Assembly (NCBI GenBank): GCA_027026255.1
Contig: JALVOT010000015.1
Span: forward strand, 413-64,412
Direction of reading: 5' to 3'
Origin: a candidate division WOR-3 bacterium
GTDB taxonomy: Bacteria; Hydrothermota; Tepidihabitantia; SM23-42
DNA length: 64,000 nt
In this document: one piece after another, positions 38,678 through 51,133 of the stretch
Layout of the letters: the number at the start of each line of letters is the position of its first letter
Position numbering within the stretch: the stretch's first letter is position 1
The notes under the pieces: generated by a model
What the model was told of the DNA's origin: nothing
The model's input: only the letters and a program-made list of their open reading frames with translations
The model's database searches: none
Position numbers and translations under genes: made by a program

Positions 38678-40174
38678 ATGAAGGAATACAGAAATTTTAT
38701 TGATGGGAAACTTGTGCCTTCAAATTCAGGTCGGACATTTGAAAATCGTAATCCCGCAAACTGGGATGAGGTTGTCGGGGTTTTTCCCAGGTCAACGGCT
38801 GAGGATGTAGAGAAGGCAATCGAATCGGCAAAAAAGGCTTATAAGAAATGGCGTCAGATTCCCTGGCCCAAACGTTCCGAAATTATGCGCCGGGCTGCCG
38901 AGATTATGATTCAGAAGAAAGAAGAACTCGCAAGGTTGATGACCAGAGAGATGGGTAAGGTGATTAAAGAAACACGAGGCGATGTCCAGGAAGGTATTGA
39001 TACCGCATTATATGCTTCAATCCAGGGAAGGAAGTATTTCGGTTATACGGTTCCCTCTGAGTTGTCAAATAAAAGTTGTATGACAAAGAGGGAGCCACTT
39101 GGTGTCTGGGGACTTATTACGCCCTGGAATTTTCCTATTGCGATTCCTTCCTGGAAGATATTTCCCTGTTTATTGAGTGGTAATACTGCGGTCATTAAGC
39201 CGGCGACCTATACCCCGGCGTCAGTAGGTGAATTAGCAGGTATCTTACAGGAGGCAGGTGTTCCGGATGGTGTTTTGAATGTTGTTTATGGAGGCGGGGG
39301 AGAGGTTGGTGAGGCGCTTCTAAATCATCCTGATATTGTCGGTATTTCATTCACCGGTTCTTCTGAGATTGGTCGGAGAATCGGTGAGGTTTGTGGAAAG
39401 AGACTGAAGCGTTGTTCATTAGAACTGGGGGGAAAGAATGGTCAGGTTGTGCTCAAGGATGCAGACCTGGAACTGGCAATTGAAGGTGTGCTCTGGGGAG
39501 CATTTGGAACAACCGGCCAGCGCTGCACGGCTACCTCAAGGTTGATTATAGAAGAACCGATATATGATGAATTTATCGCCCGGCTAAAAGAGAGGGCTGA
39601 AAAGTTGAAATTGGGTGATGGACTTGATGAGATGATCGATGTCGGTCCATTGGTGAGTGAGGCACAGCGCGAAACCGTCCATTCCTATGTGGAGATCGGC
39701 AAAAAAGAAGGTGCAAATCTGATTACCGGCGGTGAGTCATATACTGAAGGGGAATGTGCAAAGGGCTGGTTTTATAGACCGACAATCTTTATTGATGTTA
39801 AACCACAGATGCGTATTGCCCGGGAAGAGATTTTTGGACCGGTTCTTTCGGTATTAAAGGCGAAAAATTTTGAGGAGGCGATTGAGATACTTAATGGAAC
39901 CTCATATGGATTATCTTCAAGTATCTATACGAAGGATTTGAATAAGGCACATAAGGCAATAGAACTTGCAGAAACCGGTATTGTCTATATTAATGCCCCG
40001 ACCATTGGTGCGGAATGTCATCTTCCCTTTGGCGGTATGAAGAATACGGGAAACGGCCATCGTGAAGGCGGCTGGACTGCATATGAAATATTTACTGAAG
40101 TGAAAACAGTCTACATTGATTATTCAGGTGCTTTACAAAAGGCACAGATTGATACCTGGGATAATAGGGATTGA
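38678..40174 (+). CDS. NAD-dependent aldehyde (semialdehyde) dehydrogenase
   Basis: [24 protein letters not shown] (catalytic Cys), EEIFGP, PFGG. Confidence 0.93.
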
Positions 40175-40177
40175 ACT

Positions 40178-41530
40178 ATGGCACAAAAAAGAAAAAGGGG
40201 CAGATTACCAATAATCAAAACTGAGTTGCCAGGACCACGAGCCCGGCAGATTTTGCGTCAGGATCAGAAATATGTTTCTTCCTCATATACCAGGGCATAT
40301 CCTGTGGTTATAGATAAGGGAGATGGGGTATGGGTTATGGATGTTGACGGTAACCGATTTCTCGATTTTACTGCGGGAATCGGCGTGCTTTCAACCGGAC
40401 ATTGCCATCCTGAAATTGTTAAGGTTATAAATAAACAGGCATCGCGATTTCTTCATATGTCAGGGACCGATTTTTATTATAAGGTACAGAGCTGGCTTGC
40501 TGAAAAACTTGCCGAGATTGTTCCCGGGGCAAAGAATAAGAAGGTATTTTTTGCCAATACCGGAACTGAGGCGGTTGAATGTGCAATGAAGCTTGCTCGT
40601 TATCACACCCGAAGGCAGAGGTTTATCGCCTTTATCGGTGCATTCCACGGCCGCACCCTGGGCTCTCTTTCTCTCACCGCATCCAAGGCTGTTCAGCGGC
40701 GTTATTTCAGCCCTTTGGTTTCTGGAGTGTATCATGTGCCTTATGCATACTGTTTTCGGTGTATGTTTCACCTTCAATATCCATCCTGTAATATGGAGTG
40801 CGTGAGATACATTGACGAGGTCATTTTTAAAAAGGTTGTGCCGCCGGAAGATGTCGCCGCGATATTTGTTGAACCAATCCAGGGAGAAGGTGGCTATATC
40901 GTACCACCGCCGCTCTTTCTCACGCATTTAAGAAGACTCTGCAATAAGTATGATATTCTTCTGGTTGATGATGAGGTTCAGGCCGGTATGGGCAGAACCG
41001 GCAGGATGTTTGCGATTGAACATTTTAAAGCCAAGGCAGATATCTACTGCATTGCCAAGGGGATTGCATCGGGTTTACCCTTGGGTGCATGCGTGGCACA
41101 AAGCGGAATAATGAACTGGCCACCGGGTTCTCATGCCTCAACATTCGGTGGAAATCCTGTTGCCTGTGCTGCAGCATTAAAGACAATTGAACTACTGGAA
41201 AATGGTTTGATTGAGAATGCAGAAAAACTTGGTCAGATTGCCCTGGAAAGGCTGAAGGAGTTAAAGCAGCGTTATGATTTTATTGGTGATGTAAGAGGAA
41301 AGGGATTGATGCTTGGAATTGAACTTGTTGGTGATGCAATTACCAAAGAGCCAGTTTCGGATAAACGGGATGCGGTTGTATATGAGGCGTTCAAACAGGG
41401 TCTGCTGTTACTGGGTGCCGGTGAGAGTACAGTTCGTCTGATACCCCCCCTGGTGCTGAATGAATCAGAATTACATCTGGGGCTTGATATATTCGTCAGG
41501 GTGATTAAAAAGATTTTTAAAAGGTCTTAA
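40178..41530 (+). CDS. Class III PLP aminotransferase (GabT/ornithine aminotransferase-like)
   Basis: AFHGRT, EPIQGEGG, DEVQAGMGRTG, IAKGIASG (PLP Lys), STFGGNP. Confidence 0.92.
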   Translation: MAQKRKRGRLPIIKTELPGPRARQILRQDQKYVSSSYTRAYPVVIDKGDGVWVMDVDGNRFLDFTAGIGVLSTGHCHPEIVKVINKQASRFLHMSGTDFYYKVQSWLAEKLAEIVPGAKNKKVFFANTGTEAVECAMKLARYHTRRQRFIAFIGAFHGRTLGSLSLTASKAVQRRYFSPLVSGVYHVPYAYCFRCMFHLQYPSCNMECVRYIDEVIFKKVVPPEDVAAIFVEPIQGEGGYIVPPPLFLTHLRRLCNKYDILLVDDEVQAGMGRTGRMFAIEHFKAKADIYCIAKGIASGLPLGACVAQSGIMNWPPGSHASTFGGNPVACAAALKTIELLENGLIENAEKLGQIALERLKELKQRYDFIGDVRGKGLMLGIELVGDAITKEPVSDKRDAVVYEAFKQGLLLLGAGESTVRLIPPLVLNESELHLGLDIFVRVIKKIFKRS

Positions 41531-41531
41531 T

Positions 41532-41568
41532 AAAAAAAGGGGGCTGATGCCCCCTTTTTATTTTTTTT
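41532..41568. terminator. Bidirectional intrinsic terminator
   Basis: AAAAAAAGGGGGC-TGAT-GCCCCCTTTTT between convergent genes. Confidence 0.85.
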
Positions 41569-41575
41569 GTTATTT

Positions 41576-42067
41576 TTAATAACTGGGCATTAGATAGATT
41601 CCAAACCAGACATCGGTTGTATCAATGCTTTTAAAATACTCATCCATAACAACAAAGTGGAGTATTGCTTTTGCTGATTGAAGGTGTTTTGTGGATAAAT
41701 ATCGACGCACAGTGTCGAGCGGAAGATTTACATTTAATAATTTGAATGTATCCACAGCTTCCGGATTTGTTATACCTTTAATTTTTGCATAGATTGCCAG
41801 TGGTTCAGCAGGGCCAAATATATAATTACCGTTTTTATCATAATATTCCCAGATCAATTCCTTTAGATAGCAATCAACTGAATTTTTCGCAACAAAATCA
41901 ATTTCATCAATGACTGCATAATGTGTAGAATCACCTGTATGTGTATACCAACCCATTGGATGTATATAGGTGATTTCAACATCCGGTTTCAGCTTTGCTG
42001 ATTCCTTTGCATAGTCACATGCAATAAAGACCATCATAATAGCCAGAATTACCAGAATTTTTTTCAT
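41576..42067 (-). CDS. Hypothetical lipoprotein
   Basis: AGGAGG SD, MKKILVILAIMMVFIA-C lipobox; no family recognised. Confidence 0.7.
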   Translation of the reverse strand: MKKILVILAIMMVFIACDYAKESAKLKPDVEITYIHPMGWYTHTGDSTHYAVIDEIDFVAKNSVDCYLKELIWEYYDKNGNYIFGPAEPLAIYAKIKGITNPEAVDTFKLLNVNLPLDTVRRYLSTKHLQSAKAILHFVVMDEYFKSIDTTDVWFGIYLMPSY

Positions 42068-42094
42068 CGTTCCTCCTTTTCTCATATCATAACA

Positions 42095-42122
42095 ATTCTA
42101 TTCAATATTTTTAATTTGTCAA
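42095..42122 (-). promoter_or_regulatory. Promoter of lipoprotein gene
   Basis: TTGACA-N16-TAGAAT. Confidence 0.6.
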
Positions 42123-42340
42123 GGGGTAAAAATGCTGACTCCTCTCCACTTTTTGTCTTGATTTTTGTGAGAGGCGAAAGATATTTCATAATATTTTTTC
42201 AATTTCTGTTTCAGGCTCAGTAATACTATCCGGAGATTTTATCTGCAGATAAATTTCGGGCGGCAGACTCTGAATCAAAATATCTACTTATAGATACTTA
42301 CGGTGTTAAATATTGAAATTTTTGTCTAAGTGTAATATGA

Positions 42341-42892
42341 CTAAGCTGGCTTTTTTAAGTTTTTGCCGTAGGTGTAGCCCTTTTCAAATGCCTTCAGGTT
42401 GAGAGGAATCGCCTTTTCCGGAACAGAATCCGGGATTGCCTTTTTCATCGCTTCGGGGCTTACAACATCGGTGATTGCAGTAAAGAAGCCGAGCATTACT
42501 ACATTGGCCACAATTTTTATTCCCAGTTCTTCAGCAAATCTTGTTGCCGGGATGGCGAATGTTGTGTTCACCCTATCCGACTTTGGTTTTACAAGGTCTT
42601 CATCATAAAGAAGAATTCCGTTTTCTTTGAGTTCAGATTCAAATTTATCATACCCGGCCTGGGACATTGCAACTAAGATGTCTGATTTTGTAACATAGGG
42701 ATATAGTACCTTTGTTTCTGCAACAACAAGCTGGGAACTGCAGGCACCGCCGCGGGCTTCAGGTCCGAACGATTGATTCATTGTGGCAAATTTATTGTCA
42801 TAGATAGAGGCAGCTTTACCGACAATAATCCCGGAACGAATAATACCCTGGCCTCCATATCCGGCAAATCTTATTTCAAACATCCTATTCAC
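42341..42892 (-). CDS. korC: 2-oxoacid:ferredoxin oxidoreductase gamma subunit
   Basis: EIRFAGYGGQG, QSFGPEARGGA, NVVMLG, NLKAFEKG. Confidence 0.9.
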   Translation of the reverse strand: MNRMFEIRFAGYGGQGIIRSGIIVGKAASIYDNKFATMNQSFGPEARGGACSSQLVVAETKVLYPYVTKSDILVAMSQAGYDKFESELKENGILLYDEDLVKPKSDRVNTTFAIPATRFAEELGIKIVANVVMLGFFTAITDVVSPEAMKKAIPDSVPEKAIPLNLKAFEKGYTYGKNLKKPA

Positions 42893-43661
42893 CTTCCTTT
42901 TTTGGTTCTGCTACCGCCCCTGAATAGGGGATGAATTTATCACCCAAAACCCTGGTAAGCTGGGCATTATATGTGTCGAGATAGGTAGGTCTTTCTAATG
43001 TAGTGAATCTTCCAATAATAATCTTTTGATCGTTTCTGATTTCTGTTTCCCTTGGTTCAATTCCCTCTTTTATTTCTGAATTTTCATAGTAGAAGTTTAA
43101 TAAACTCGATTCAATTTTATCAATGCCCTGATAGTAATTTAATCCCGGCGCCAACACCTCAATTACTGATAGTCCATTTTTCTGAAGTGCTTCGGTTATC
43201 GATTTTGCCAGTTCATCGGTATGAAGGGCAGTCCAGCGCGCCGTATAGACCGCACCGCAGGAATTTGCAAGATGTGGGATATTAAAGGGCTCTTCAAATG
43301 TGGAATAGGCGGAAAATTTTGTGGTAGTTTCTGGTGCGGATTTATGGGCAATTTCCCGATATATAAAACTGTTGATGCAGATGACGGTTAGTTCCATATT
43401 TCTTCGTCCGGCATGAACAAGATGATTACCACCCAGGGTGATCAGATCACCGATTATTGGAATTACCTTTAATGATGGATTGGTAAGTTTCAGTCCGGTG
43501 CCAAAGGCAACTGCCCGACCTCGATTGGTATGGAAATAATCCACGCCAAGATATTTTATATCCTCGGGCCGAAATGGAATATCCGATGTTATTGAAATCT
43601 TTTGTGGGTTTATACCCGATTCTTTAATCCCATTTGCCAGTGTTTCAATAAATGTACTCAT
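42885..43661 (-). CDS. Degenerate 2-oxoacid:ferredoxin oxidoreductase beta subunit (KorB')
   Basis: Alignable to 44889-45743 (GRAVAFGTGLKL, GGNHLVHAGRRN, PFNIP, YTARWTALH) but lacks the Fe-S cysteines and GDGD/NN; start placed at ATG 43661 (ATGA overlap). Confidence 0.85.
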   Translation of the reverse strand: MSTFIETLANGIKESGINPQKISITSDIPFRPEDIKYLGVDYFHTNRGRAVAFGTGLKLTNPSLKVIPIIGDLITLGGNHLVHAGRRNMELTVICINSFIYREIAHKSAPETTTKFSAYSTFEEPFNIPHLANSCGAVYTARWTALHTDELAKSITEALQKNGLSVIEVLAPGLNYYQGIDKIESSLLNFYYENSEIKEGIEPRETEIRNDQKIIIGRFTTLERPTYLDTYNAQLTRVLGDKFIPYSGAVAEPKKEGE

Positions 43662-44899
43662 TCCTTTGCACTCCAATTTCCTTCAAAGACCAATTTTTCT
43701 AACCTTGTCTTGAATTCAATGATACCTTCGGATTTTTTCTCCTTTTGTGCACCCAGTTCGATAGCATCACAGATATCCTGGGGATTGTGAACGCCCGCAC
43801 CACCGTGGGGAACAAGCACAACATTGGCTTTTCCATCACAACACCTTTCTATCTCAAAGACAATCTGTCCATAATTGATTTCCGGAACCACAAATGCCTT
43901 GACTCGATTTGCCAGTTCTCTAATCTTTTCATCGGGAAACGGCCAGACCGTAACAAGCCTGAGATTTCCGACCTTGATACCTTTTTCCCGCGCCATATCA
44001 ATCCCTTTTATTGCTACCCTTGAGGATATGCCGTAGGAGACAACCACTACTTCGCAGTTTTCAGTTTCTTCTTCTTTCAGTTCAATAATCTTATCTTTAT
44101 TTTTTTGAATTTTATCGATAAGCCTTTTAAGATATATTCCCCTTGGTTCATCCTTTTTAACAGGATAGCCCTTTTCATTATGGGCAAGTCCGCTGATGAA
44201 TAGATTCAGACCATCCCCGGCTTTTGCAATCTGGGGGATGAGGTCGGAGCCAGGTTTAAATGGTAGATATTCTTCCGCCGACCCCTTATAGAAGTTTCTG
44301 GGTTCAATCTCAATTTCATCAGCTGCCGGGATGACAACCTTTTCTGTCATATGACCAACACATTCATCCGCCATAATCATTACAGGGCAGCGGTATTTCT
44401 CGGCAAGGTTGAATGCCTTGATTGTATAATCGAACATTTCCTGGGGAGAATCCGGGGAAATCGCAATGATTTCATAATCACCATGTGAACCCCAGCGTGA
44501 CTGCATCATATCTGCCTGACCGGTTTTGGTCGGTACCCCTGTAGATGGGCCACCCCGCTGAACATTTAGCAGGACAAAAGGTGTTTCAAGCATTGCCCCG
44601 TATCCGATTGTTTCCATCATCAATGAATAGCCGGGTCCTGATGTAATCGTCATCGCCTTGGCTCCTCCCCAGGCAGCACCTAAAACTGCGGCAATAGAAG
44701 CGAGTTCATCTTCCATCTGGATGAAGATTGCCCCGGCTTTTGGTGCGACACGGGCAAATGCCTCGGCGGCTTCAGTAGAAGGGGTAATCGGATAGCCAGC
44801 AATAAATTTGCATCCTGCAGCCAATGCACCCCAGCCGGCAGCGACATCACCGTCAATATAATAGACACCGGTAAGAACTGATTTTGGATCAGCCTTCAT
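43658..44899 (-). CDS. korA: 2-oxoacid:ferredoxin oxidoreductase alpha subunit (canonical motifs)
   Basis: YPITPSTE, QMEDE, TSGPG, VQRGGPSTG, EINYGQ. Confidence 0.93.
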   Translation of the reverse strand: MKADPKSVLTGVYYIDGDVAAGWGALAAGCKFIAGYPITPSTEAAEAFARVAPKAGAIFIQMEDELASIAAVLGAAWGGAKAMTITSGPGYSLMMETIGYGAMLETPFVLLNVQRGGPSTGVPTKTGQADMMQSRWGSHGDYEIIAISPDSPQEMFDYTIKAFNLAEKYRCPVMIMADECVGHMTEKVVIPAADEIEIEPRNFYKGSAEEYLPFKPGSDLIPQIAKAGDGLNLFISGLAHNEKGYPVKKDEPRGIYLKRLIDKIQKNKDKIIELKEEETENCEVVVVSYGISSRVAIKGIDMAREKGIKVGNLRLVTVWPFPDEKIRELANRVKAFVVPEINYGQIVFEIERCCDGKANVVLVPHGGAGVHNPQDICDAIELGAQKEKKSEGIIEFKTRLEKLVFEGNWSAKE

Positions 44900-45743
44900 T
44901 GTCCTCTCCTTTTATCTGAGTGCGCCATTTATTGTAACGTTCCGTATAACTTGGTCTTTCCCGATCGACAAATTTACCGCAGATAATATTCGATTGGAAC
45001 GGGATATCAAGATTTTTTGTATTCTCACCATGTCGGATTTCTGCATTGGTATGATAGAACCTCATCATATCGATTCCATCCCCCAGACGATTAATCCGGG
45101 AGTAATACTGGGCACAGGGTGATATAACTTCAATCAAAGAAAATCCTGTTTTATGCAATGCCTCAACTATGGAGGTTGCCAATCTGCGCACATGGAGTGC
45201 AGTCCAGCGTGCAACATAGACCGCACCTGCAGAATCAGCAATATAGGGAATATTGAATGGCGGTTCAACACATCCGTAAGGTGAAGTGGTGGCATAGGCG
45301 GTAAGTGGGGTGGTCGGGGCAACCTGACCACCGGTCATCGCATAGATGAAGTTATTTACACAAATCACAACCATATCAATATTTCTTCGTGCGGCATGGA
45401 TAAAGTGATTTCCACCGATTGCAAGCAGGTCTCCATCACCGGAAAAGACGATGACCTTTAAATTAGGATTTGCCAGTTTAATACCGGTTGCAAATGGAAT
45501 AGCCCGACCATGGGTTGTGTGGAATGAGTCAAGTTTCACATAACCTGCTACCCTTCCGGTGCAGCCAATGCCGGAAACAATGCAGACATTATTTAAGTCA
45601 ACCTGTGCCTTATCAAGTGCTGCGGCAAGGGTGGTAACTGCAATGCCGATACCACAACCCGGACACCAGATATGGGGTAGTCGGTCCATCCGGAGAAGAT
45701 TCTCCATCGGATGGTAGGTATTCCTTGTGGTTAATGTTTCCAT
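44889..45743 (-). CDS. korB: 2-oxoacid:ferredoxin oxidoreductase beta subunit (canonical motifs)
   Basis: WCPGCG, SGIGC, HGRA, GDGD, NN..YAMTGGQ, SPC. Confidence 0.94.
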   Translation of the reverse strand: METLTTRNTYHPMENLLRMDRLPHIWCPGCGIGIAVTTLAAALDKAQVDLNNVCIVSGIGCTGRVAGYVKLDSFHTTHGRAIPFATGIKLANPNLKVIVFSGDGDLLAIGGNHFIHAARRNIDMVVICVNNFIYAMTGGQVAPTTPLTAYATTSPYGCVEPPFNIPYIADSAGAVYVARWTALHVRRLATSIVEALHKTGFSLIEVISPCAQYYSRINRLGDGIDMMRFYHTNAEIRHGENTKNLDIPFQSNIICGKFVDRERPSYTERYNKWRTQIKGEDNEG

Positions 45744-45758
45744 AATGATACCTTTTTT

Positions 45759-46958
45759 TTATTTTGGAGCATATTCAATAATTCCTTCTTTTTTACTATT
45801 TTCCCTGGATGCCTGAATAATTGCATTTAATATGTCATCGGAATTTTCAACACCCTTTTCACCGTGGGTAACAAATATTGTGTTTGCATTCCCCTGACTG
45901 CATCTCTGGATTTCATAAACGAGCTGGCCATAATTCATCTCAACCGCGACAAATGCCTTTGCCTTTCTGGAAAGTTCCCGGACGCGATTTTCAGCAAAGG
46001 GCCAGATTGTATCGAGTTTTAATAAACCGGTTTTTATCCCTTGCTCTCTTGCCTTTTGTTGTGCCTGTTTTGCTGCTGAGAAACTTGAACCATAGGCAAT
46101 AACTATAATCTCAGCATCTTCGGTTGCCAGTTCTTGAAAGCGGACAATCTTTTCTGCATAATTTCGAATCTTTCGGACCAGGGGATGAACATTAAATTCC
46201 TGACATTCTTCATTCATTATCGGATAGCCCCGTTCATCATGGGTCAGACCTGTAACATGGAATTTATATCCAGCCCCGATGTCAACAAGCCTGGGGATAA
46301 GGTCTTCATCCCTTTTAAAGGGTAGATATTTTTCCTGGGGACCATCATAATATCGTCTCGGTTCAAGTTTGATATCCTCGGCGCGGGGGATTGTAACATC
46401 GGATTTCAGATTGACTAAATAACCATCGGTGAGAACAACTACAGGAACCCGGTAATGTTCAGAAAAGTTGAATGCCTTAATCATAAAATCAAAGATTTCC
46501 TGAACCGTGGAAGGCGCAAGGCCAATTATTTCATAGTCACCATGAGAACCCCATCTTGATTGGAAGATATCACCCTGGGCCGGTGCAGTTGGTATGCCGT
46601 GCCCTGGTCCGACCCGCTGAACATCAACGATGACACAGGGTGTTTCAAGCATCACCCCGAGTCCCATATGTTCCATCATCAAAGAGAGTCCCGGTCCTGA
46701 AGTAACGGTCATAGACCTCCTTCCGGTCCAGGATGCACCAAGCACTGCAGCCAGTGCAGATATCTCATCCTCCATCTGGACATATACTGCATCCAGGGTC
46801 TTTGCCCGCTCTAAAAAATAGTTACTTATCTCAATCGCCGGTTCAATGGGATACATACCAAGGAATCGGCATCCAGCCGAGATTGCCCCTTCAACACAGG
46901 CTTGACTTCCACTTAATTGATGGGTCCCGGTTTTTAATGAATCTTTTGGCGGCTTCAT
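45759..46958 (-). CDS. Divergent 2-oxoacid:ferredoxin oxidoreductase alpha subunit (KorA')
   Basis: Paralog of 43658-44899 with YPIEPAIE for YPITPSTE and QRVGPGHG for QRGGPSTG. Confidence 0.88.
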   Translation of the reverse strand: MKPPKDSLKTGTHQLSGSQACVEGAISAGCRFLGMYPIEPAIEISNYFLERAKTLDAVYVQMEDEISALAAVLGASWTGRRSMTVTSGPGLSLMMEHMGLGVMLETPCVIVDVQRVGPGHGIPTAPAQGDIFQSRWGSHGDYEIIGLAPSTVQEIFDFMIKAFNFSEHYRVPVVVLTDGYLVNLKSDVTIPRAEDIKLEPRRYYDGPQEKYLPFKRDEDLIPRLVDIGAGYKFHVTGLTHDERGYPIMNEECQEFNVHPLVRKIRNYAEKIVRFQELATEDAEIIVIAYGSSFSAAKQAQQKAREQGIKTGLLKLDTIWPFAENRVRELSRKAKAFVAVEMNYGQLVYEIQRCSQGNANTIFVTHGEKGVENSDDILNAIIQASRENSKKEGIIEYAPK

Positions 46959-46964
46959 CGGTCT

Positions 46965-48623
46965 TTAAAATATGTCAATTATACGGGCTAAAGCGGCCCG
47001 GCCTCGATAATCGGGTAAGAGAATCGGTGCGCGTCTTTCAGGTTTAATCCCTGCCTCATTAAGCATATCAATATATTTTTTAACATGTTCCAAGGTAATG
47101 TTTCCGGTTTCAGTATGGGTTTTGACATATTCAGCAGCATTTATTCCTGCCCTTCTACCAAAGACAAGACAGTCAAGGGTAGAATTGCCCATTAAACGAT
47201 TCTTTCCGTGCACACCACCAGATACCTCTCCAGCAACCCAGAGGCCTTCAACATTTGTCCTTCCCCAGGGGTCGGTTTCTACCCCGCCATTTTGGTAGTG
47301 CAGGGTAGGAAATACCAATACCGGATCCTTTGACATGTCAATACCATTTCTTTTGTACAGACGGGTCATTCCGGGAAAAGCCCGGGCAAGATAGCCCTTA
47401 CCATTTTTAATATCAATAAGCGGCGTATCAAGCCAGATTCCTCTTAATCCGGTTGGTGTGGTAATCCCTTTGTTTCTCACATAACACTCTCGAATAAATG
47501 ATGCGGCTTCAACATCCCGGGGTTCGAGTGGGAAGACAAATGCTTCACCATCAACATTCACTGGTTGGGCACCACTGCTGCGAAGTTTCTCAGTAAGCAG
47601 ATAACCGACAATCTGAATTGGATAGGCAGCACCGGTTGGGTGGTATTGCACTGTATCAATATCCCGCAATTTTACACCGACCCGATAGGCAAGTACCGGA
47701 CCATCAAATGTTGCACCATAATGATTTGTTGTTGGAAAACCCCGGATATGAAGTCTTCCAAATCCTCCGGTCGCCAGAATCGTTGCCTTGGCACGAACAA
47801 TTTTGTATTCGCCGGTCTCCAAATTCCATAAAATCGCTCCGGTTACTTTATTATTATCATCGGTAAGCAGTTCAATTGCCGGATACTGCTCCAGACAGAG
47901 GATCTGCCGATTCCTGAATTCATCCCTGATTACCCTTAACTCTTCCAAACCGGTGTAGTCGCGGCAGGAATGCATACGTTTTATAGAAGTTCCACCACCC
48001 CATTTTTCCACCAGTTCACCATTCTCTTCACGGTCAAAGATGGCACCCATTTCAATCAACCATTTGATAATAAATGGAGCGTCTTCAACCAGGGCACGCA
48101 CAACATCCGGTTTGTTGGCAAAGTGACCGCCTCCTATTGTATCAAGATAATGGCGCTGGACTGAATCGATTTCCCGGTCTGCAGCCTGGGTTCCGCCTTC
48201 AGCCATAATGGAATTGGCATCGCCGTGCCGAAGTTTGTTAACAAGAAGAATTTTATCACTTGGTACACCACTATTATTCGCCCATAGTGCGGCAGATGTT
48301 CCGGCAAGCCCGCCGCCAATAATTAAGATATCGGTCTCATAGTCTATTTTTGAGAGATCGGTTTTGCCGGGGTCAATTAAGGGATATGCCTCAAGTAGAT
48401 CGACGACCTCATTGGGGCCAATATCACCTTTGTTGGGCCCTATTGTGATCACCCTTTTTCCACCCGGGGCATAGTCAGGATGGACCTTAAGGACTTCTTC
48501 CTGTTCCTGTCTGGACATTGCCGGCGGCGTATAGTTGATTCTGCTTGATCTTGTCTTTTCAACCTTTTCAATAAGTTTTCTCATATATTCAGGATATCCA
48601 TCGATCAATTTAATCTCAGCCAT
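46965..48623 (-). CDS. Soluble FrdA/SdhA/TfrA-family flavoprotein
   Basis: IGGGLAG, MAEGG, QYHPTG, LTEKLR, EPRD, PTLHYQNGG, HGKNRLMGNS; about 85-aa N-terminal extension; ends without the full helical C-terminal domain. Confidence 0.88.
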   Translation of the reverse strand: MAEIKLIDGYPEYMRKLIEKVEKTRSSRINYTPPAMSRQEQEEVLKVHPDYAPGGKRVITIGPNKGDIGPNEVVDLLEAYPLIDPGKTDLSKIDYETDILIIGGGLAGTSAALWANNSGVPSDKILLVNKLRHGDANSIMAEGGTQAADREIDSVQRHYLDTIGGGHFANKPDVVRALVEDAPFIIKWLIEMGAIFDREENGELVEKWGGGTSIKRMHSCRDYTGLEELRVIRDEFRNRQILCLEQYPAIELLTDDNNKVTGAILWNLETGEYKIVRAKATILATGGFGRLHIRGFPTTNHYGATFDGPVLAYRVGVKLRDIDTVQYHPTGAAYPIQIVGYLLTEKLRSSGAQPVNVDGEAFVFPLEPRDVEAASFIRECYVRNKGITTPTGLRGIWLDTPLIDIKNGKGYLARAFPGMTRLYKRNGIDMSKDPVLVFPTLHYQNGGVETDPWGRTNVEGLWVAGEVSGGVHGKNRLMGNSTLDCLVFGRRAGINAAEYVKTHTETGNITLEHVKKYIDMLNEAGIKPERRAPILLPDYRGRAALARIIDIF

Positions 48624-48637
48624 TTTTACTCCTTTCT

Positions 48638-49393
48638 TTAATCTGGTTCCCGCTGGCGCTCTGCATACATCTTTTCCAGCTCTTCCCTTGATTTACTTGT
48701 GATAGTATCCATCGCCTCTTTGAATTTTCCCTTTTCAATCTCCTCAACCCGTTTTTTTAGATGTTTGGGCATAGTCAGACCATATCGACCATACATTCTT
48801 CTTCCTAATTGGGCGACATGATACTGGACGATTTCTGCTGGACACCTGATTGCACACATACCACACTGGATGCAGTCAAATGAATCATCGGCAACAGCTT
48901 CAAAATCACCCCGGATTGCCGACTGCACATAGTCCATCACCTCTAAATCCTGGGGGCAGGACTTTGTGCAGGTGTTGCAGGATACACACCTGGCAACCTC
49001 AGGATAGTATTTTATAAATACCGAGGCATCATAGGGTTCTTTGGTGATGTCATATATCGCCTTTTCTGCAGGTGAGAAAGGAATCTGTACCAAATACATT
49101 CCATCTTCAACCCTGGTTTGACAGGCTAAATCCGCCTGAAGTTTATATTCACCTGCTCTTCGGTAGATTGTAGCACAGGCACCACAATGGCCCTGTCTGC
49201 ATCCAACACTTCGGAGTAGTCGATAGCCAGCATATTCAATTGCCGTAAGGATTGTTAAATCTGCAGGAACCCTATAGCCTTTTCCCATTATATAGATTGT
49301 GACCCAATCCTTGATATCCTTTTCATCAACCCCGGTGGTTACAGGACGATTTGCCTCGGCAATTCTTTCCATAATGTTGGTTTTCTCTTCCAT
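48638..49393 (-). CDS. FrdB/TfrB-like iron-sulfur subunit ([2Fe-2S] + 2x[4Fe-4S])
   Basis: GCRQGHCGAC...LACQ; CVSCNTCTKSCP; CIQCGMCAIRCP. Confidence 0.88.
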   Translation of the reverse strand: MEEKTNIMERIAEANRPVTTGVDEKDIKDWVTIYIMGKGYRVPADLTILTAIEYAGYRLLRSVGCRQGHCGACATIYRRAGEYKLQADLACQTRVEDGMYLVQIPFSPAEKAIYDITKEPYDASVFIKYYPEVARCVSCNTCTKSCPQDLEVMDYVQSAIRGDFEAVADDSFDCIQCGMCAIRCPAEIVQYHVAQLGRRMYGRYGLTMPKHLKKRVEEIEKGKFKEAMDTITSKSREELEKMYAERQREPD

Positions 49394-49406
49394 ATTTTTT
49401 TTCTCC

Positions 49407-50303
49407 TTACTTTATAAGTCCCTTTTTCTTGAGCAGGGGTTTAGGATCCACATAATTCTGGTTAAAACCAAAGGTTTTATTATCAAGGCCGAAGGCAACC
49501 GCAATTAGTTGTGTAATGTAGAATACAGGCATCTGCTGGAAATCAGGATGGTTTTTTAGTACCTCTTTTTGGCGTGTATCAAGATTGAAGGCGCATAGGG
49601 GACAGCAGGTTGTTATCGCCTCGGCTCCTTCCTGTTGGGCATGACCCAGAATATTATAAGCAAGTTCCGCCACCTTTTCTTTATTATTAACGGTTTGATA
49701 ACTTCCGCAACATACCTTTTTATAGGGATTGTCAATCACCTCAGCGCCGAGTGCCTCAAGCAGGTCCTTCTGGATTGTTGGATCCTCCGGGTCATCAATA
49801 CCTACCTCTATGGGTCTTAATATCATACATCCATAATATGGGGCAACCCTTAGATTCTTTAAAGGATTTTTTGCTTTCGCCTTCAACTTATCAAAACCGA
49901 TTTCTTTTAATAATTCTAATAATTGAATCACTTCAATCTCGGCACGGTAATCCTTTTCTCGATACATTAAGTCATTTATTTTTTTTAGGTCTTCAGTATT
50001 TTCCTTAACACGCAGGTTACTTCTTTTCAGTGTATTAAAACACATTGAACAGAGGGTAAGGACACGTTTTTCATCTTCTATCTGACCATTTTCTATCATT
50101 TCCTGAACCCGGATTAGATTTCTTATTGGTGCGACATGATGAATTAAGTCATCAGCGGTTAAGGAGAATACAGTGCCGCAGCAGGTCCACCTCGGCAATT
50201 CGACCATTTCAATGCCCAGTTCCCGGGCGATTGCGATTGCTGAGGTTTCAAAATTTTTTGCAGTTGTTTTTAAGGTGCACCCAGGATAATAAGCAATTTT
50301 CAA
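49407..50303 (-). CDS. hdrB: Heterodisulfide reductase subunit B
   Basis: Two CCG domains: YYPGC..WTCCG..CSMC; YYGC..VCCG..CPLC. Confidence 0.93.
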   Translation of the reverse strand: MKIAYYPGCTLKTTAKNFETSAIAIARELGIEMVELPRWTCCGTVFSLTADDLIHHVAPIRNLIRVQEMIENGQIEDEKRVLTLCSMCFNTLKRSNLRVKENTEDLKKINDLMYREKDYRAEIEVIQLLELLKEIGFDKLKAKAKNPLKNLRVAPYYGCMILRPIEVGIDDPEDPTIQKDLLEALGAEVIDNPYKKVCCGSYQTVNNKEKVAELAYNILGHAQQEGAEAITTCCPLCAFNLDTRQKEVLKNHPDFQQMPVFYITQLIAVAFGLDNKTFGFNQNYVDPKPLLKKKGLIK

Positions 50304-50312
50304 TTCACACCC

Positions 50313-50714
50313 CTATCCGGTAAATTTTCGACAGGCACTTACAATTGCAATCTGAGGAAGGGAAACAAGTTCATATTTGGGGATTTTCTTTATTTCGACA
50401 TAGTCAAGCGCCTTTCTCAGATATACCTGTCTTAATGCTTCAGCAACCTTGGAGACATCAAGGTTGCGGGGACATCGGACTGTGCAGCTGTAACAGGAGG
50501 CGCATACCCATATTGCTTTGCTATTTAATACATCCAGATCACCCAATTGGACCATCCTCATTATCTGTGATGGTGTAATGTCCATATCCGCCACCATAGG
50601 ACAGGAACCAGAGCAGGTTCCGCACTGTTCACAAAGGGTTATGTCCTGATCAGCCAGTTCATTAATCTTTTTCAGAAATTTGATATTCTCTGAGGTGATG
50701 ACAAGTTTCTTCAT
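50313..50714 (-). CDS. hdrC: Heterodisulfide reductase subunit C
   Basis: CEQCGTCSGSCP; WVCASCYSCTVRCP. Confidence 0.92.
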   Translation of the reverse strand: MKKLVITSENIKFLKKINELADQDITLCEQCGTCSGSCPMVADMDITPSQIMRMVQLGDLDVLNSKAIWVCASCYSCTVRCPRNLDVSKVAEALRQVYLRKALDYVEIKKIPKYELVSLPQIAIVSACRKFTG

Positions 50715-51133
50715 TGCTTAGAAACCTCCTTCTTGAGTGGTCCGAGTTTTTCAATCTCATTGATGAATTCATTGACAACTTTCTGAAATTTGCCACCCTC
50801 ATTTGCGGAAATCCATTCCAGCCTGACACGCTCAGGTTCGATACCAAGACTGCTTAATAGACTCTTAAGCAGGATTATTCTCCTTAAAGTTTTATAATTG
50901 CCATCCACATAATGACAATCTCCAGGATGACAACCAGCAACCAGTATACCCCAGGCACCACGGTCAAATGCTTCCAAGATCAGTTCCAGGTCAATCCGAC
51001 TTGAACACATACTTCTGATAATTCTAAAATGGGGCTTCATCTGAAGTCTTGATGTTCCTGCAGCATCAGCCCCAGCATAAGAACACCAGTTGCAGCAGAA
51101 AGCAATTACTTTTGGTTCGTTATTGTCTTTCAT
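50711..51133 (-). CDS. mvhD: MvhD/FlxD-type [2Fe-2S] adaptor subunit
   Basis: FCCNWCSYAGAD, MCSSRID, GCHPGDCHY, WISANEG. Confidence 0.93.
   Translation of the reverse strand: MKDNNEPKVIAFCCNWCSYAGADAAGTSRLQMKPHFRIIRSMCSSRIDLELILEAFDRGAWGILVAGCHPGDCHYVDGNYKTLRRIILLKSLLSSLGIEPERVRLEWISANEGGKFQKVVNEFINEIEKLGPLKKEVSKQ

What the first reader, a model, noticed from the sequence alone, without database searches (positions are those of the whole stretch)
42885..46958. Reciprocally degenerated korAB duplication suggesting an asymmetric, half-active OFOR with a pseudo-enzyme beta subunit
Seen: pair 1 is an altered alpha (YPIEPAIE, GPGHG) with an intact beta; pair 2 is an intact alpha (YPITPSTE, GPSTG) with an apparently dead beta. 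KorB' has lost WCPGCG, and has SGIGC to SDIPF, THGRA to NRGRA, GDGD to GD, NN..YAMTGGQ to NS..YREIAHK and SPC to APG, so all Fe-S ligands and the TPP/Mg motif are gone. It still keeps an uninterrupted 258-aa frame, whereas dead genes elsewhere in this window are broken by deletions and frameshifts. Established: OFORs are dimers of protomers with TPP sites formed by alpha and beta domains. Inference: one working site (KorA+KorB) and one structural or regulatory half (KorA'+KorB') that breaks symmetry, possibly to dock the Hdr/Frd module.
Basis: partly seen in the sequence, partly recalled or inferred. Interest (0 to 1): 0.82.

Follow-up and report, generated by a model that had tools for sequence, protein, structure and literature searches.

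The report
Half-dead duplicated 2-oxoacid:ferredoxin oxidoreductase
A five-gene operon encodes a ferredoxin-linked 2-oxoacid oxidoreductase in which one alpha/beta pair keeps the catalytic residues and a conserved second pair has lost them, so the enzyme probably works as a lopsided complex with a single active site.

Summary
On the minus strand lie korA1 (altered), korB1 (intact), korA2 (intact), korB2' (no Fe-S ligands) and korG. They sit at the end of an hdrA-mvhD-hdrCB-frdBA operon.

KorB2' is not decaying. All 120 listed homologues (59-80% identical) share the same losses. dN/dS is 0.06-0.20. The gene order is the same in 19 of 19 complete loci.

The degeneration is complementary within each subunit:
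- KorA2 keeps the substrate-binding Thr, Arg and Ser-Thr (19/19 to 20/20). KorA1 has relaxed them (Thr 0/20).
- KorA1 keeps the loop that, in the Sulfolobus OFOR structure, reaches into the other protomer's active site (Leu 20/20). KorA2 has relaxed it (9/20).

This pattern fits a heterotetramer with one active site, built from KorA2, KorB1 and the KorA1 loop. KorA1·KorB2' would be a structural pseudo-protomer. Physical assembly is inferred, not shown.

The proposed docking of the Hdr/Frd module is not supported. A relative has the same Hdr-Frd context with a single korABG, and 8 of 18 five-gene loci have no Frd block upstream.

Eight literature searches found no description of this. I rate it a new variant of a known enzyme kind.

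The parts
45759..46958 (-). korA1: OFOR alpha paralogue with relaxed cis substrate residues (YPIEP, GPGHG) and an invariant trans loop (FHVTGLTHD...ECQE)
   Evidence: POR_N 5.8e-60; NF006412 465.9 bits, cutoff 411. Thr39 position 0/20 Thr, Arg115 13/20, Leu238 20/20, Gln253/Glu254 20/20; dN/dS 0.03-0.175.
44889..45743 (-). korB1: intact OFOR beta with four Cys ligands, GDGD and NNFIYAMTGGQ
   Evidence: TPP_enzyme_C 7.6e-33; the motifs are invariant across the orthologue sets (14 and 20 sequences), except the CPGC loop, where the two Cys are invariant and the inner Pro/Gly vary; dN/dS 0.03-0.125.
43658..44899 (-). korA2: OFOR alpha with intact cis substrate residues (YPITPSTE, QRGGPSTG), a relaxed trans loop and a conserved extra C-terminal tail of about 17 aa
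   Evidence: NF006412 520.3 bits. Thr39 19/19, Arg115 20/20, Ser119/Thr120 20/20, Leu238 position 9/20; tail present in 19 of 19 full-length orthologues.
42885..43661 (-). korB2': 258-aa cofactor-poor KorB paralogue (pseudo-beta). It has no CPGC segment, no Cys ligands, a two-residue deletion in GDGD and H78R.
   Evidence: 120/120 lack all four Cys; dN/dS 0.06-0.20; pLDDT 85.5; top fold matches are OFOR beta chains, TM 0.62-0.68.
42341..42892 (-). korG: the single gamma (domain III) subunit gene
   Evidence: POR 1.6e-36; NF006323, 204 bits, cutoff 235. It follows korB2' in 18 of 18 loci that extend beyond korB2'.
46965..53082 (-). Context, same operon: hdrA (51130-53082), mvhD (50711-51133), hdrC (50313-50714), hdrB (49407-50303), frdB-like Fe-S protein (48638-49393), frdA/tfrA-like flavoprotein (46965-48623)
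   Evidence: Gaps or overlaps between consecutive genes are 15 nt or less (coordinates).
53187..53214 (-). Sigma-70-like promoter match (TTGACA-16-TATAAT, 12/12), about 100 nt upstream of hdrA
   Evidence: This is a consensus match only.

Best explanation
The five genes most likely encode one obligately asymmetric 2-oxoacid:ferredoxin oxidoreductase, probably acting on 2-oxoglutarate. I picture a heterotetramer core, (KorA2·KorB1)(KorA1·KorB2'), plus KorG.

TPP, Mg and the only [4Fe-4S] cluster sit in KorB1. The substrate carboxylate is held by Thr39 and Arg115 of KorA2. The substrate pocket is completed in trans by the invariant TGLTHD...CQE loop of KorA1.

The second, symmetry-related site would be formed by KorA1 in cis, KorB2', and the KorA2 loop in trans. 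It has lost its cluster ligands, its ferredoxin-docking CxxC loop, part of its TPP motif and its substrate residues. It survives only as structure.

KorA1·KorB2' is therefore a pseudo-protomer. It is retained because an OFOR protomer needs a partner protomer for its dimer interface and for its trans-acting elements.

The likely origin is a tandem korAB duplication followed by complementary loss of function. That would lock the four proteins into a heteromer, as in duplication-degeneration-complementation or constructive neutral evolution. An adaptive gain, such as removing coupling between the two sites, is possible but not needed.

Shown here: the sequence pattern, the purifying selection and the conserved gene order. 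Inferred: physical assembly, cofactor content and substrate.
For: 1. Reality and conservation.
- 250 homologues of KorB2' at E<=1e-10. The 120 listed are 247-270 aa and 59-100% identical.
- All 120 lack the four Cys ligands, carry the GD deletion and have H78R and G58D.

2. Selection (NG86 dN/dS over the six pairs with finite dS).
- KorB2' 0.06-0.20; KorA1 0.03-0.175; KorB1 0.03-0.125; KorA2 0.04-0.13.

3. Gene order.
- A1-B1-A2-B2' in 19 of 19 loci with full context. korG follows in 18 of 18 loci that extend that far.

4. Complementary degeneration in alpha (20 A1, 20 A2 with one partial, 6 single-pair alphas, 3 outgroup alphas).
- Thr of YPITP: A2 19/19, single 6/6, outgroup 3/3, A1 0/20.
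- Arg115: A2 20/20, A1 13/20.
- Ser119: A2 20/20, A1 7/20. Thr120: A2 20/20, A1 1/20.
- The position aligned with StOFOR1 Asp468a (alignment) shows the reverse: Leu in A1 20/20, single 6/6, outgroup 3/3, A2 9/20.
- Gln253 and Glu254: A1 20/20, single 6/6, A2 1/20 and 0/20.

5. Structural meaning of these positions, from passages of PMC5020499.
- One a-b pair holds one TPP.
- Thr256a and Arg344a bind the substrate carboxylate, and mutating them abolishes or strongly lowers activity.
- Asp468a' comes from the other protomer and lines the pocket.
- The 2-oxoglutarate-specific Hydrogenobacter KorAB has Leu at that position.
- The CxGC loop ligates the cluster and docks ferredoxin.

6. Beta tails.
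- A C-terminal motif [LFIV][GKR][DES]x[FY] is present in B2' 20/20 and single-pair betas 6/6, and in B1 0/20.

7. The catalytic pair resembles the single-pair enzyme of relatives.
- Single alpha is 61-64% identical to A2 and 51-54% to A1. Single beta is 64-68% identical to B1 and 41-46% to B2'.

8. Rates.
- Mean pairwise distance: A1 0.43 and B2' 0.51, against A2 0.31 and B1 0.26.

9. Fold.
- KorB2' is predicted to fold as an OFOR beta subunit (pLDDT 85.5; TM 0.62-0.68 to 5b46_B, 5b47_B, 5b48_B, 6n2n_B and 8ys5_C).
Against: - No direct evidence that the four proteins assemble.
- The mapping of the trans loop rests on one phmmer alignment to a distant structure. I could not inspect coordinates, though the aligned TG-x-x-H motif is conserved.
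- Glu63 of QMEDE is the residue that, from recall, activates TPP. It is invariant in KorA1 as well (20/20), which is unexpected for a purely dead site unless it has a structural or cross-site role.
- KorB2' keeps the Asp of GD (120/120) and NN (104/120), so TPP binding is not excluded.
- Rate covariation did not single out the proposed pairs. Partial Mantel r: A1-B2' 0.37, A2-B1 0.36, A2-B2' 0.32, B1-B2' 0.44.
- The order of events is unresolved. The alpha tree gave (single,(A1,A2)) with SH-aLRT 95, but the AU test does not reject (single+A2) as a clade (p 0.49). The beta tree is unresolved.
- The substrate is not established. KorB1 scores 257.6 bits against the 2-oxoglutarate beta model, below its cutoff of 364.
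Confidence: 0.62

Rival explanations
1. KorA1·KorB2' forms its own complex, separate from an ordinary (KorA2·KorB1·KorG)2 enzyme. It would have a new non-catalytic job, such as a regulator, an assembly factor or an adaptor for another redox partner.
For: Both proteins are under purifying selection. Both carry family-specific invariant residues not seen in the catalytic copies: B2' has D27, P32, R47, F116, E150, Q234 and F243, and A1 has D226. Hdr-type genes are frequent neighbours.
Against: If KorA2·KorB1 formed a homodimer, the KorA2 trans loop would face an active site and should stay conserved as in single-pair enzymes. It does not (Leu 9/20, Gln253 1/20, Glu254 0/20). KorA1, whose loop would then face a dead site, keeps it 20/20. 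All four genes always occur together, in 19 of 19 loci.
Confidence: 0.15
2. The second site is altered rather than dead. KorB2' still binds TPP/Mg and, with KorA1, carries out a cluster-independent reaction or binds a different ligand. An example would be non-oxidative decarboxylation of a 2-oxoacid to an aldehyde, or an allosteric site.
For: The Asp of GD and NN are retained (120/120 and 104/120). Glu63 is invariant in KorA1. Passages of PMC5020499 state that the cluster and CoA are not needed for non-oxidative decarboxylation in StOFOR1. An aldehyde dehydrogenase and a class-III aminotransferase lie next to the operon.
Against: The GDGD loop is shortened by two residues. SGIGC is replaced by SDIPF, H78 by R, and TGGQ by IAGK-like sequences. 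The KorA1 carboxylate-binding position is Thr in 0/20 and is filled by seven different residues. Arg115 is lost in 7/20, which argues against any one conserved substrate. The ALDH/aminotransferase neighbours also flank the single-pair form in L018. In the AlphaFold model the former TPP loops (residues 71-90 and 111-120) are the low-confidence parts.
Confidence: 0.12
3. Two independent enzymes follow gene adjacency. KorA1·KorB1 would be an OFOR with new substrate specificity and KorA2·KorB2' something else.
For: Gene order alone. MtOOR shows that replacing the Thr of YPITP (YPIRP) can retune specificity (passage of PMC5020499).
Against: The KorA1 residue at that position is not conserved: A5, V4, E3, M3, Q3, P1, R1. 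KorA2's invariant substrate residues would then face a beta subunit with no cluster and a damaged TPP motif.
Confidence: 0.05
4. korA1 and korB2' are decaying leftovers of a duplication and have no function.
For: Loss of catalytic motifs. They also evolve faster than their paralogues.
Against: dN/dS is 0.03-0.20. Frames are intact in 20 loci. Orthologues are 59-67% identical in records labelled as several different phyla. Family-specific invariant residues exist.
Confidence: 0.02

Closest known systems
Three- and two-subunit OFOR/OGOR enzymes without a ferredoxin domain: Sulfolobus tokodaii StOFOR1/2 (5b46-5b48) and Magnetococcus marinus OGOR (6n2n). Also the four-subunit H. pylori OorDABC (8ys5) and the P. 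furiosus alpha subunit (1yd7).
   Same: Same domains: alpha = POR_N + PFOR_II, beta = TPP_enzyme_C, gamma = POR. These are the best sequence matches among solved structures and the best fold matches for KorB2'. KorA2 and KorB1 carry every hallmark motif.
   Different: From passages and the Fig. 2 legend of PMC5020499, the OFORs shown there (StOFOR1, StOFOR2, DaPFOR, MtOOR) are symmetric dimers of identical protomers with two equivalent sites. That this holds for all known OFORs is my recall. Here a second, non-identical alpha/beta pair with no cluster ligands is encoded and conserved. That implies one active and one dead site.
Single-pair korA-korB-korG of close relatives (loci L015-L020)
   Same: Same genomic locus. 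In L018 the synteny is identical: hdrA-mvhD-hdrCB-frdBA-kor...-lipoprotein-aminotransferase-ALDH. The alpha is 61-64% identical to KorA2 and the beta 64-68% identical to KorB1.
   Different: Only one alpha and one beta. A single alpha chain carries both the cis residues and the trans loop (6/6). In the five-gene form these are split between KorA2 and KorA1.
Enzyme-pseudoenzyme heteromers ('prozymes'), for example trypanosomatid deoxyhypusine synthase and PRMT1
   Same: A catalytically dead paralogue is retained as an obligate partner of the active paralogue in a heterotetramer. I saw only the search listing and abstracts of PMC3663545 and bioRxiv 10.1101/776112.
   Different: Different fold, chemistry and domain of life. 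Here two dead subunits, one alpha-type and one beta-type, arose together, and the degeneration is reciprocal within the alpha chains.
Five-subunit OGOR (ForDABGE) of Hydrogenobacter thermophilus.
   Same: An OFOR encoded by five genes.
   Different: As I recall, its extra subunits are small delta/epsilon proteins and not a second alpha and beta. No call tested this.

Membership tests
2-oxoacid:ferredoxin oxidoreductase (OFOR) superfamily | Alpha subunit with domain I (POR_N) and domain II (PFOR_II) | tested here: met
   KorA1 5.8e-60 and 2.5e-20; KorA2 7.3e-65 and 5.4e-20. Both exceed the NF006412 cutoff (465.9 and 520.3 against 411).
2-oxoacid:ferredoxin oxidoreductase (OFOR) superfamily | Beta subunit with a TPP-binding PP domain (TPP_enzyme_C) and the GDG...NN Mg/diphosphate motif | tested here: met
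   This row is for KorB1: 7.6e-33, with GDGD and NNFIYAMTGGQ invariant in 20/20. KorB2' has the domain (1.4e-17) but a shortened GD loop and no TGGQ, so for KorB2' the motif is only partly met.
2-oxoacid:ferredoxin oxidoreductase (OFOR) superfamily | Four Cys in beta that ligate the proximal [4Fe-4S] cluster (CxxC, GC, PC) | tested here: not met
   This row is for KorB2': 0 of 4 Cys in 120 of 120 family members. KorB1 has all four, and they are invariant in 20/20.
2-oxoacid:ferredoxin oxidoreductase (OFOR) superfamily | YPITP motif and the substrate-binding Arg in alpha | tested here: not met
   This row is for KorA1: Thr 0/20, Arg 13/20. KorA2 meets it: Thr 19/19, Arg 20/20.
2-oxoglutarate-specific OFOR (OGOR/Kor) | Scores above the curated cutoff of the 2-oxoglutarate equivalog models | tested here: not met
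   KorB1 against NF007207: 257.6 bits, cutoff 364. KorA2 against NF007206: 344.9 bits, cutoff 579. Leu at the StOFOR1 Asp468 position, as reported for H. thermophilus KorAB, is present in KorA1. So 2-oxoglutarate is a plausible substrate but not an established one.
Pseudoenzyme subunit | Homologous to an enzyme, lacks the catalytic or cofactor residues, and is maintained by purifying selection | tested here: met
   for the losses. for dN/dS 0.06-0.20. for conservation across many genomes.
Obligate heterotetramer (A2·B1)(A1·B2') | Physical co-assembly of the four chains | tested here: inconclusive
   Only indirect evidence: the complementary conservation pattern and the invariant gene order. 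The one modelling job gave no verdict (see Tried and rejected).

The most novel reading that the evidence does not exclude
This would be the first OFOR built as an obligately asymmetric machine. A single active site would be assembled from three different polypeptides: KorA2 in cis, KorB1 with the cofactors, and the KorA1 loop in trans. It would be backed by a conserved cofactor-less pseudo-protomer.

It is widespread: public records label members as WOR-3, Stahlbacteria, Cloacimonetes, KSB1, Latescibacterota and Gemmatimonadota.

It would be a natural one-site TPP enzyme. That makes it a ready test of whether the two sites of a TPP enzyme need to communicate (half-of-the-sites or alternating-sites models). 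It would also be a clean bacterial example of complementary degeneration that locks duplicated subunits into a heteromer.
Probability: 0.55. Interest if true: 0.72.

Novelty: new variant of a known kind. Interest (0 to 1): 0.62.

Why it matters
From passages and the Fig. 2 legend of PMC5020499, and from recall for the wider family, OFORs are symmetric dimers with two equivalent TPP/Fe-S sites.

A conserved natural version with one live and one dead site would show that a single site is enough. It would let biochemists study intersubunit communication in a TPP enzyme without making mutants. It would add the OFOR superfamily to the enzymes known to recruit pseudoenzyme partners.

There is also a practical consequence. 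Annotation pipelines label all four genes as korA or korB (source names). Metabolic reconstructions of these uncultured phyla could therefore count two oxidoreductases where there is probably one.

Tried and rejected
1. Complex prediction. I submitted the four-chain core: KorA1 14-262, KorB1 20-270, KorA2 14-262 and KorB2' 1-240, each with its own alignment. The verdict was 'no answer': score 0.60, but 0.52 in the control with chain 2 replaced. No contacts were given. It says nothing for or against binding or about which alpha pairs with which beta.

2. Rate covariation by partial Mantel test on 19 taxa. L021 was dropped because its KorA2 is cut by the contig end. The test did not single out the proposed pairs, so it is inconclusive.

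3. Order of events. The quick alpha tree put the single-pair alphas outside (A1,A2). The AU test does not reject single+A2 as a clade (p 0.49), and the beta tree is unresolved. I therefore make no claim on whether the three-gene form is ancestral or a secondary loss.

4. Expression. The look-up of sequencing runs listed no RNA holder.

5. The strict C-tail pattern under-counted (B2' 14/20, single-pair beta 1/6). I replaced it with a looser pattern, chosen after seeing the sequences.

6. The threshold for calling KorB2' orthologues in the phylum survey (350 bits or more) was chosen after seeing the score gap. G060 (316 bits, 1 TGA) and G008 (partial, at a contig end) fall below it and are left out of the 36.

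7. Idea that the 1103-aa ORF at 54321-57632 is an HdrA-like protein like those beside kor clusters in relatives. Rejected: it is TamB-like.

8. Literature. Searches, plus a term search inside the Nov 2026 PFOR review PMC13768988, found no description of a dead KorB paralogue or an asymmetric OFOR. Only listings, abstracts and passages were seen. Subscription journals are not covered. Supplements were closed, so Table S4 of the WOR-3 paper PMC12542636, which may list kor copy numbers, was not seen.

Full report
ANATOMY

The minus strand of the window carries eleven tightly packed genes. Gaps or overlaps between neighbours are 15 nt or less.
- hdrA 51130-53082
- mvhD 50711-51133
- hdrC 50313-50714
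- hdrB 49407-50303
- a 2Fe-2S / 2x4Fe-4S protein, 48638-49393
- a TfrA/FrdA-like flavoprotein, 46965-48623
- korA1 45759-46958
- korB1 44889-45743
- korA2 43658-44899
- korB2' 42885-43661
- korG 42341-42892

A perfect sigma-70-like match lies about 100 nt upstream of hdrA (a consensus match only).

Pfam and NCBIfam confirm the family assignments. Both alphas exceed the cutoff of the generic 2-oxoacid:acceptor oxidoreductase alpha model. The betas and the gamma score below the cutoffs of every specific model listed.

KorB2' most likely starts at the ATG at 43661. That ATG overlaps the korA2 stop as ATGA and is preceded by GGAG.

The two alphas are 47% identical and the two betas 42%.

KorB2' lacks the N-terminal ~30 residues that carry CPGC. 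It has SDIPF for SGIGC, NRGRA for THGRA, GD for GDGD, NS..YREIAHK for NN..YAMTGGQ and APG for SPC. KorA1 has YPIEPAIE and GPGHG where KorA2 has YPITPSTE and GPSTG.

One correction is needed. The Mg/diphosphate motif is damaged, not erased. Across the family the Asp of GD and the first Asn are kept in 120/120 and the second Asn in 104/120.

KorB2' IS A CONSERVED FAMILY, NOT A DECAYING GENE

A protein search returned 250 homologues at E<=1e-10. The 120 listed are 247-270 aa and 59-100% identical. That is far closer than KorB2' is to its own paralogue KorB1 (42%).

In all 120:
- the four cluster-ligand cysteines are absent;
- two residues of GDGD are deleted;
- His78 is Arg and Gly58 is Asp.

Sources label some members as WOR-3, Stahlbacteria, Cloacimonetes, Armatimonadetes and KSB1.

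Nei-Gojobori dN/dS over the six locus pairs with finite dS:
- KorB2' 0.06-0.20
- KorA1 0.03-0.175
- KorB1 0.03-0.125
- KorA2 0.04-0.13

Several pairs are near saturation at synonymous sites. The two least diverged pairs give 0.075 and 0.20 for KorB2'.

AlphaFold2 with a 20-row alignment gives a confident model (pLDDT 85.5). Its best PDB matches are OFOR beta chains (TM 0.62-0.68). The low-confidence stretches, residues 71-90 and 111-120, are the former TPP loops.

CONSERVED FIVE-GENE ARCHITECTURE

A scan of species-representative genomes gave 14 loci. Cutting regions from relatives' genomes gave more.
- The order korA1-korB1-korA2-korB2' is seen in 19 of 19 loci with complete context.
- korG follows in 18 of 18 loci that extend beyond korB2'.

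Among 41 relatives' genomes, 24 have a KorB2' orthologue. In a 272-genome sample of the phylum, 36 do, spread over eight family codes. The 350-bit threshold was chosen after seeing the score gap.

Relatives without KorB2' carry a plain korA-korB-korG at the same place (L015-L020).

RECIPROCAL DEGENERATION WITHIN THE SUBUNITS

I aligned 20 KorA1, 20 KorA2 (one partial), 6 single-pair alphas and 3 outgroup alphas. The outgroups come from a second korABG elsewhere in these genomes. I then compared conservation column by column.

Residues that act in cis on the substrate are invariant in KorA2, in the single-pair alphas and in the outgroup, and relaxed in KorA1:
- Thr of YPITP: A2 19/19, single 6/6, outgroup 3/3, A1 0/20 (A, V, E, M, Q, P or R instead).
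- Arg115: A2 20/20, A1 13/20.
- Ser119: A2 20/20, A1 7/20.
- Thr120: A2 20/20, A1 1/20.

The segment 231-254 (YKFHVTGLTHD..GYP.M..CQE) behaves the opposite way. It is invariant in KorA1 and in the single-pair alphas, and relaxed in KorA2:
- Leu238: A1 20/20, single 6/6, outgroup 3/3, A2 9/20.
- Gln253: A1 20/20, A2 1/20.
- Glu254: A1 20/20, A2 0/20.

In the phmmer alignment to StOFOR1 chain A, Leu238 aligns with Asp468.

The Sulfolobus OFOR paper (PMC5020499; passages seen) states the following:
- One a-b pair holds one TPP and defines a protomer.
- Thr256a and Arg344a bind the substrate carboxylate and are essential.
- Asp468a' from the other protomer lines the substrate pocket and governs use of 2-oxoglutarate.
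- The 2-oxoglutarate-specific KorAB of Hydrogenobacter has Leu at that position.
- The CxGC loop both ligates the cluster and docks ferredoxin.

The beta subunits show a parallel asymmetry.
- KorB1 keeps every cofactor motif (20/20) but lacks a C-terminal [LFIV][GKR][DES]x[FY] motif.
- KorB2' has that motif in 20/20 and the single-pair betas in 6/6. KorB1 has it in 0/20 and the outgroup in 0/3.

MOST LIKELY MECHANISM

Every element that builds or services one active site is conserved. These are the KorA2 cis residues, the KorB1 cofactor motifs and the KorA1 trans loop.

Every element of the symmetry-related site is relaxed or deleted. These are the KorA1 cis residues, the KorB2' cofactor motifs and the KorA2 trans loop.

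This is what a (KorA2·KorB1)(KorA1·KorB2') heterotetramer with a single active site predicts. It is hard to reconcile with homotypic complexes. In a (KorA2·KorB1)2 enzyme the KorA2 loop would face a live site and should be conserved. In a (KorA1·KorB2')2 particle nothing would keep the KorA1 loop invariant.

The physical protomers would therefore be the cross pairs, not the gene-adjacent pairs. The catalytic pair also resembles the single-pair enzyme of relatives more closely (alpha 61-64% against 51-54%; beta 64-68% against 41-46%). It also evolves more slowly (mean distances 0.31 and 0.26 against 0.43 and 0.51).

The simplest origin is a tandem korAB duplication followed by complementary losses that make the copies mutually dependent. 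No selective advantage needs to be invoked, though one is possible.

The steps from sequence pattern to assembly, cofactor content and substrate are inference.

WHAT IS NOT SUPPORTED OR NOT RESOLVED

The suggested role in docking the Hdr/Frd module is not supported.
- The Frd block lies upstream in 10 of 18 five-gene loci with enough context. It was not found in 8 (L003, L006, L009, L010, L011, L021, L022, L023).
- L018 has the identical hdrA-mvhD-hdrCB-frdBA context, and the same downstream lipoprotein, aminotransferase and ALDH genes, with only a single korABG.

TPP binding by KorB2' cannot be excluded from sequence. Glu63 of QMEDE is invariant in KorA1 too.

The order of events is open. The quick alpha tree gave (single,(A1,A2)) with SH-aLRT 95. 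The AU test does not reject single+A2 (p 0.49). The beta tree shows a long KorB2' stem (0.76) and an unresolved branching order.

The one complex-prediction job gave no verdict, and rate covariation was uninformative.

COMPARISON WITH WHAT IS KNOWN, AND NOVELTY

KorA2, KorB1 and KorG are ordinary members of the OFOR superfamily. They are closest to the ferredoxin-domain-less two- and three-subunit enzymes.

KorA1 and KorB2' are homologues that fail defining features of the family: the YPITP Thr and the four Cys. They meet the definition of pseudoenzymes.

The arrangement works like the enzyme-prozyme heterotetramers of trypanosomatids (abstracts seen in the listing). The difference is that two dead subunits arose together, and that the two alphas have each lost different elements.

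Seven literature searches and a term search of a Nov 2026 review of PFOR diversity found no mention of such a form. The WOR-3 genome survey only lists korABCD generically (passages). Its supplements could not be read.

I rate this a new variant of a known kind. It is of real interest to OFOR and TPP enzymologists and to people who study pseudoenzyme evolution. It is not a new kind of system.

Noticed in passing
window 46965-53082 (-): Upstream in the same operon lie hdrA-mvhD-hdrC-hdrB, a 2Fe-2S/2x4Fe-4S protein and a TfrA/FrdA-like flavoprotein. The flavoprotein's FAD domain starts only at residue 98. The best NCBIfam hits are thiol:fumarate reductase TfrA (301 bits, cutoff 718) and, for HdrB, the MFR SdhE anchor and CoB-CoM HdrB. 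All score below cutoff. This looks like a soluble Hdr-coupled fumarate/succinate module of unknown electron partners.
   Followed up: partly
L018 (G017) compared with window 38678-53082: A same-family genome has identical synteny (hdr-frd-kor-lipoprotein-aminotransferase-ALDH) but a single korABG in place of the five genes. The two forms replace each other at one locus. Whether this happened by loss or by replacement is unresolved.
   Followed up: partly
window 43658-43711 (-), KorA2 residues about 397-413: KorA2 carries an extra C-terminal tail (KT[KR]LEKLVFEGGxKLKE-like). It is present in all 19 full-length KorA2 orthologues and absent from KorA1 and the single-pair alphas. It sits exactly where KorB2' has lost its N-terminal segment. 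It faintly resembles the HPMENLLR stretch at the KorB1 N-terminus, so it might be a remnant of the old beta N-terminus fused to alpha. This is speculative.
   Followed up: partly
L027 (G000:C14, about 248.7-251.3 kb of that contig): The same genome has a second, ordinary korA-korB-korG cluster, 40-49% identical to the genes studied here. I used it as the outgroup.
   Followed up: partly
L002-L005, L007-L009, L015, L016, L022, L024-L026, downstream of korG: Many related loci have a second Hdr-like cluster right after korG. It contains a 950-1400-aa HdrA-like protein, MvhD, a ~380-aa HdrC-like protein, HdrB-like proteins and split HdrA-like ORFs. Some also have a small ORF after korG (71 aa in L022, 85 aa in L006) that matches part of HdrA. 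This cluster is absent at that position in the window.
   Followed up: no
window 38678-41530 (+) and 41576-42085 (-): An aldehyde dehydrogenase (Aldedh, 6.3e-175) and a class-III aminotransferase (2.1e-122) converge on the operon. Between them and the operon lies a 169-aa ORF with no Pfam family. The trio is conserved in L018. The enzymes suggest a GABA/succinate-semialdehyde type route, which was not tested.
   Followed up: no
KorA1 residue 226; KorB1 residue 187 / KorB2' residue 150: There are family-specific charge reversals. Alpha Lys226 (A2 20/20 and the single-pair consensus) is Asp in A1 20/20. Beta Arg187 (B1 and single-pair betas) is Glu in B2' 19/20. These could be determinants that enforce heteromeric pairing. 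They could not be mapped without coordinates.
   Followed up: no
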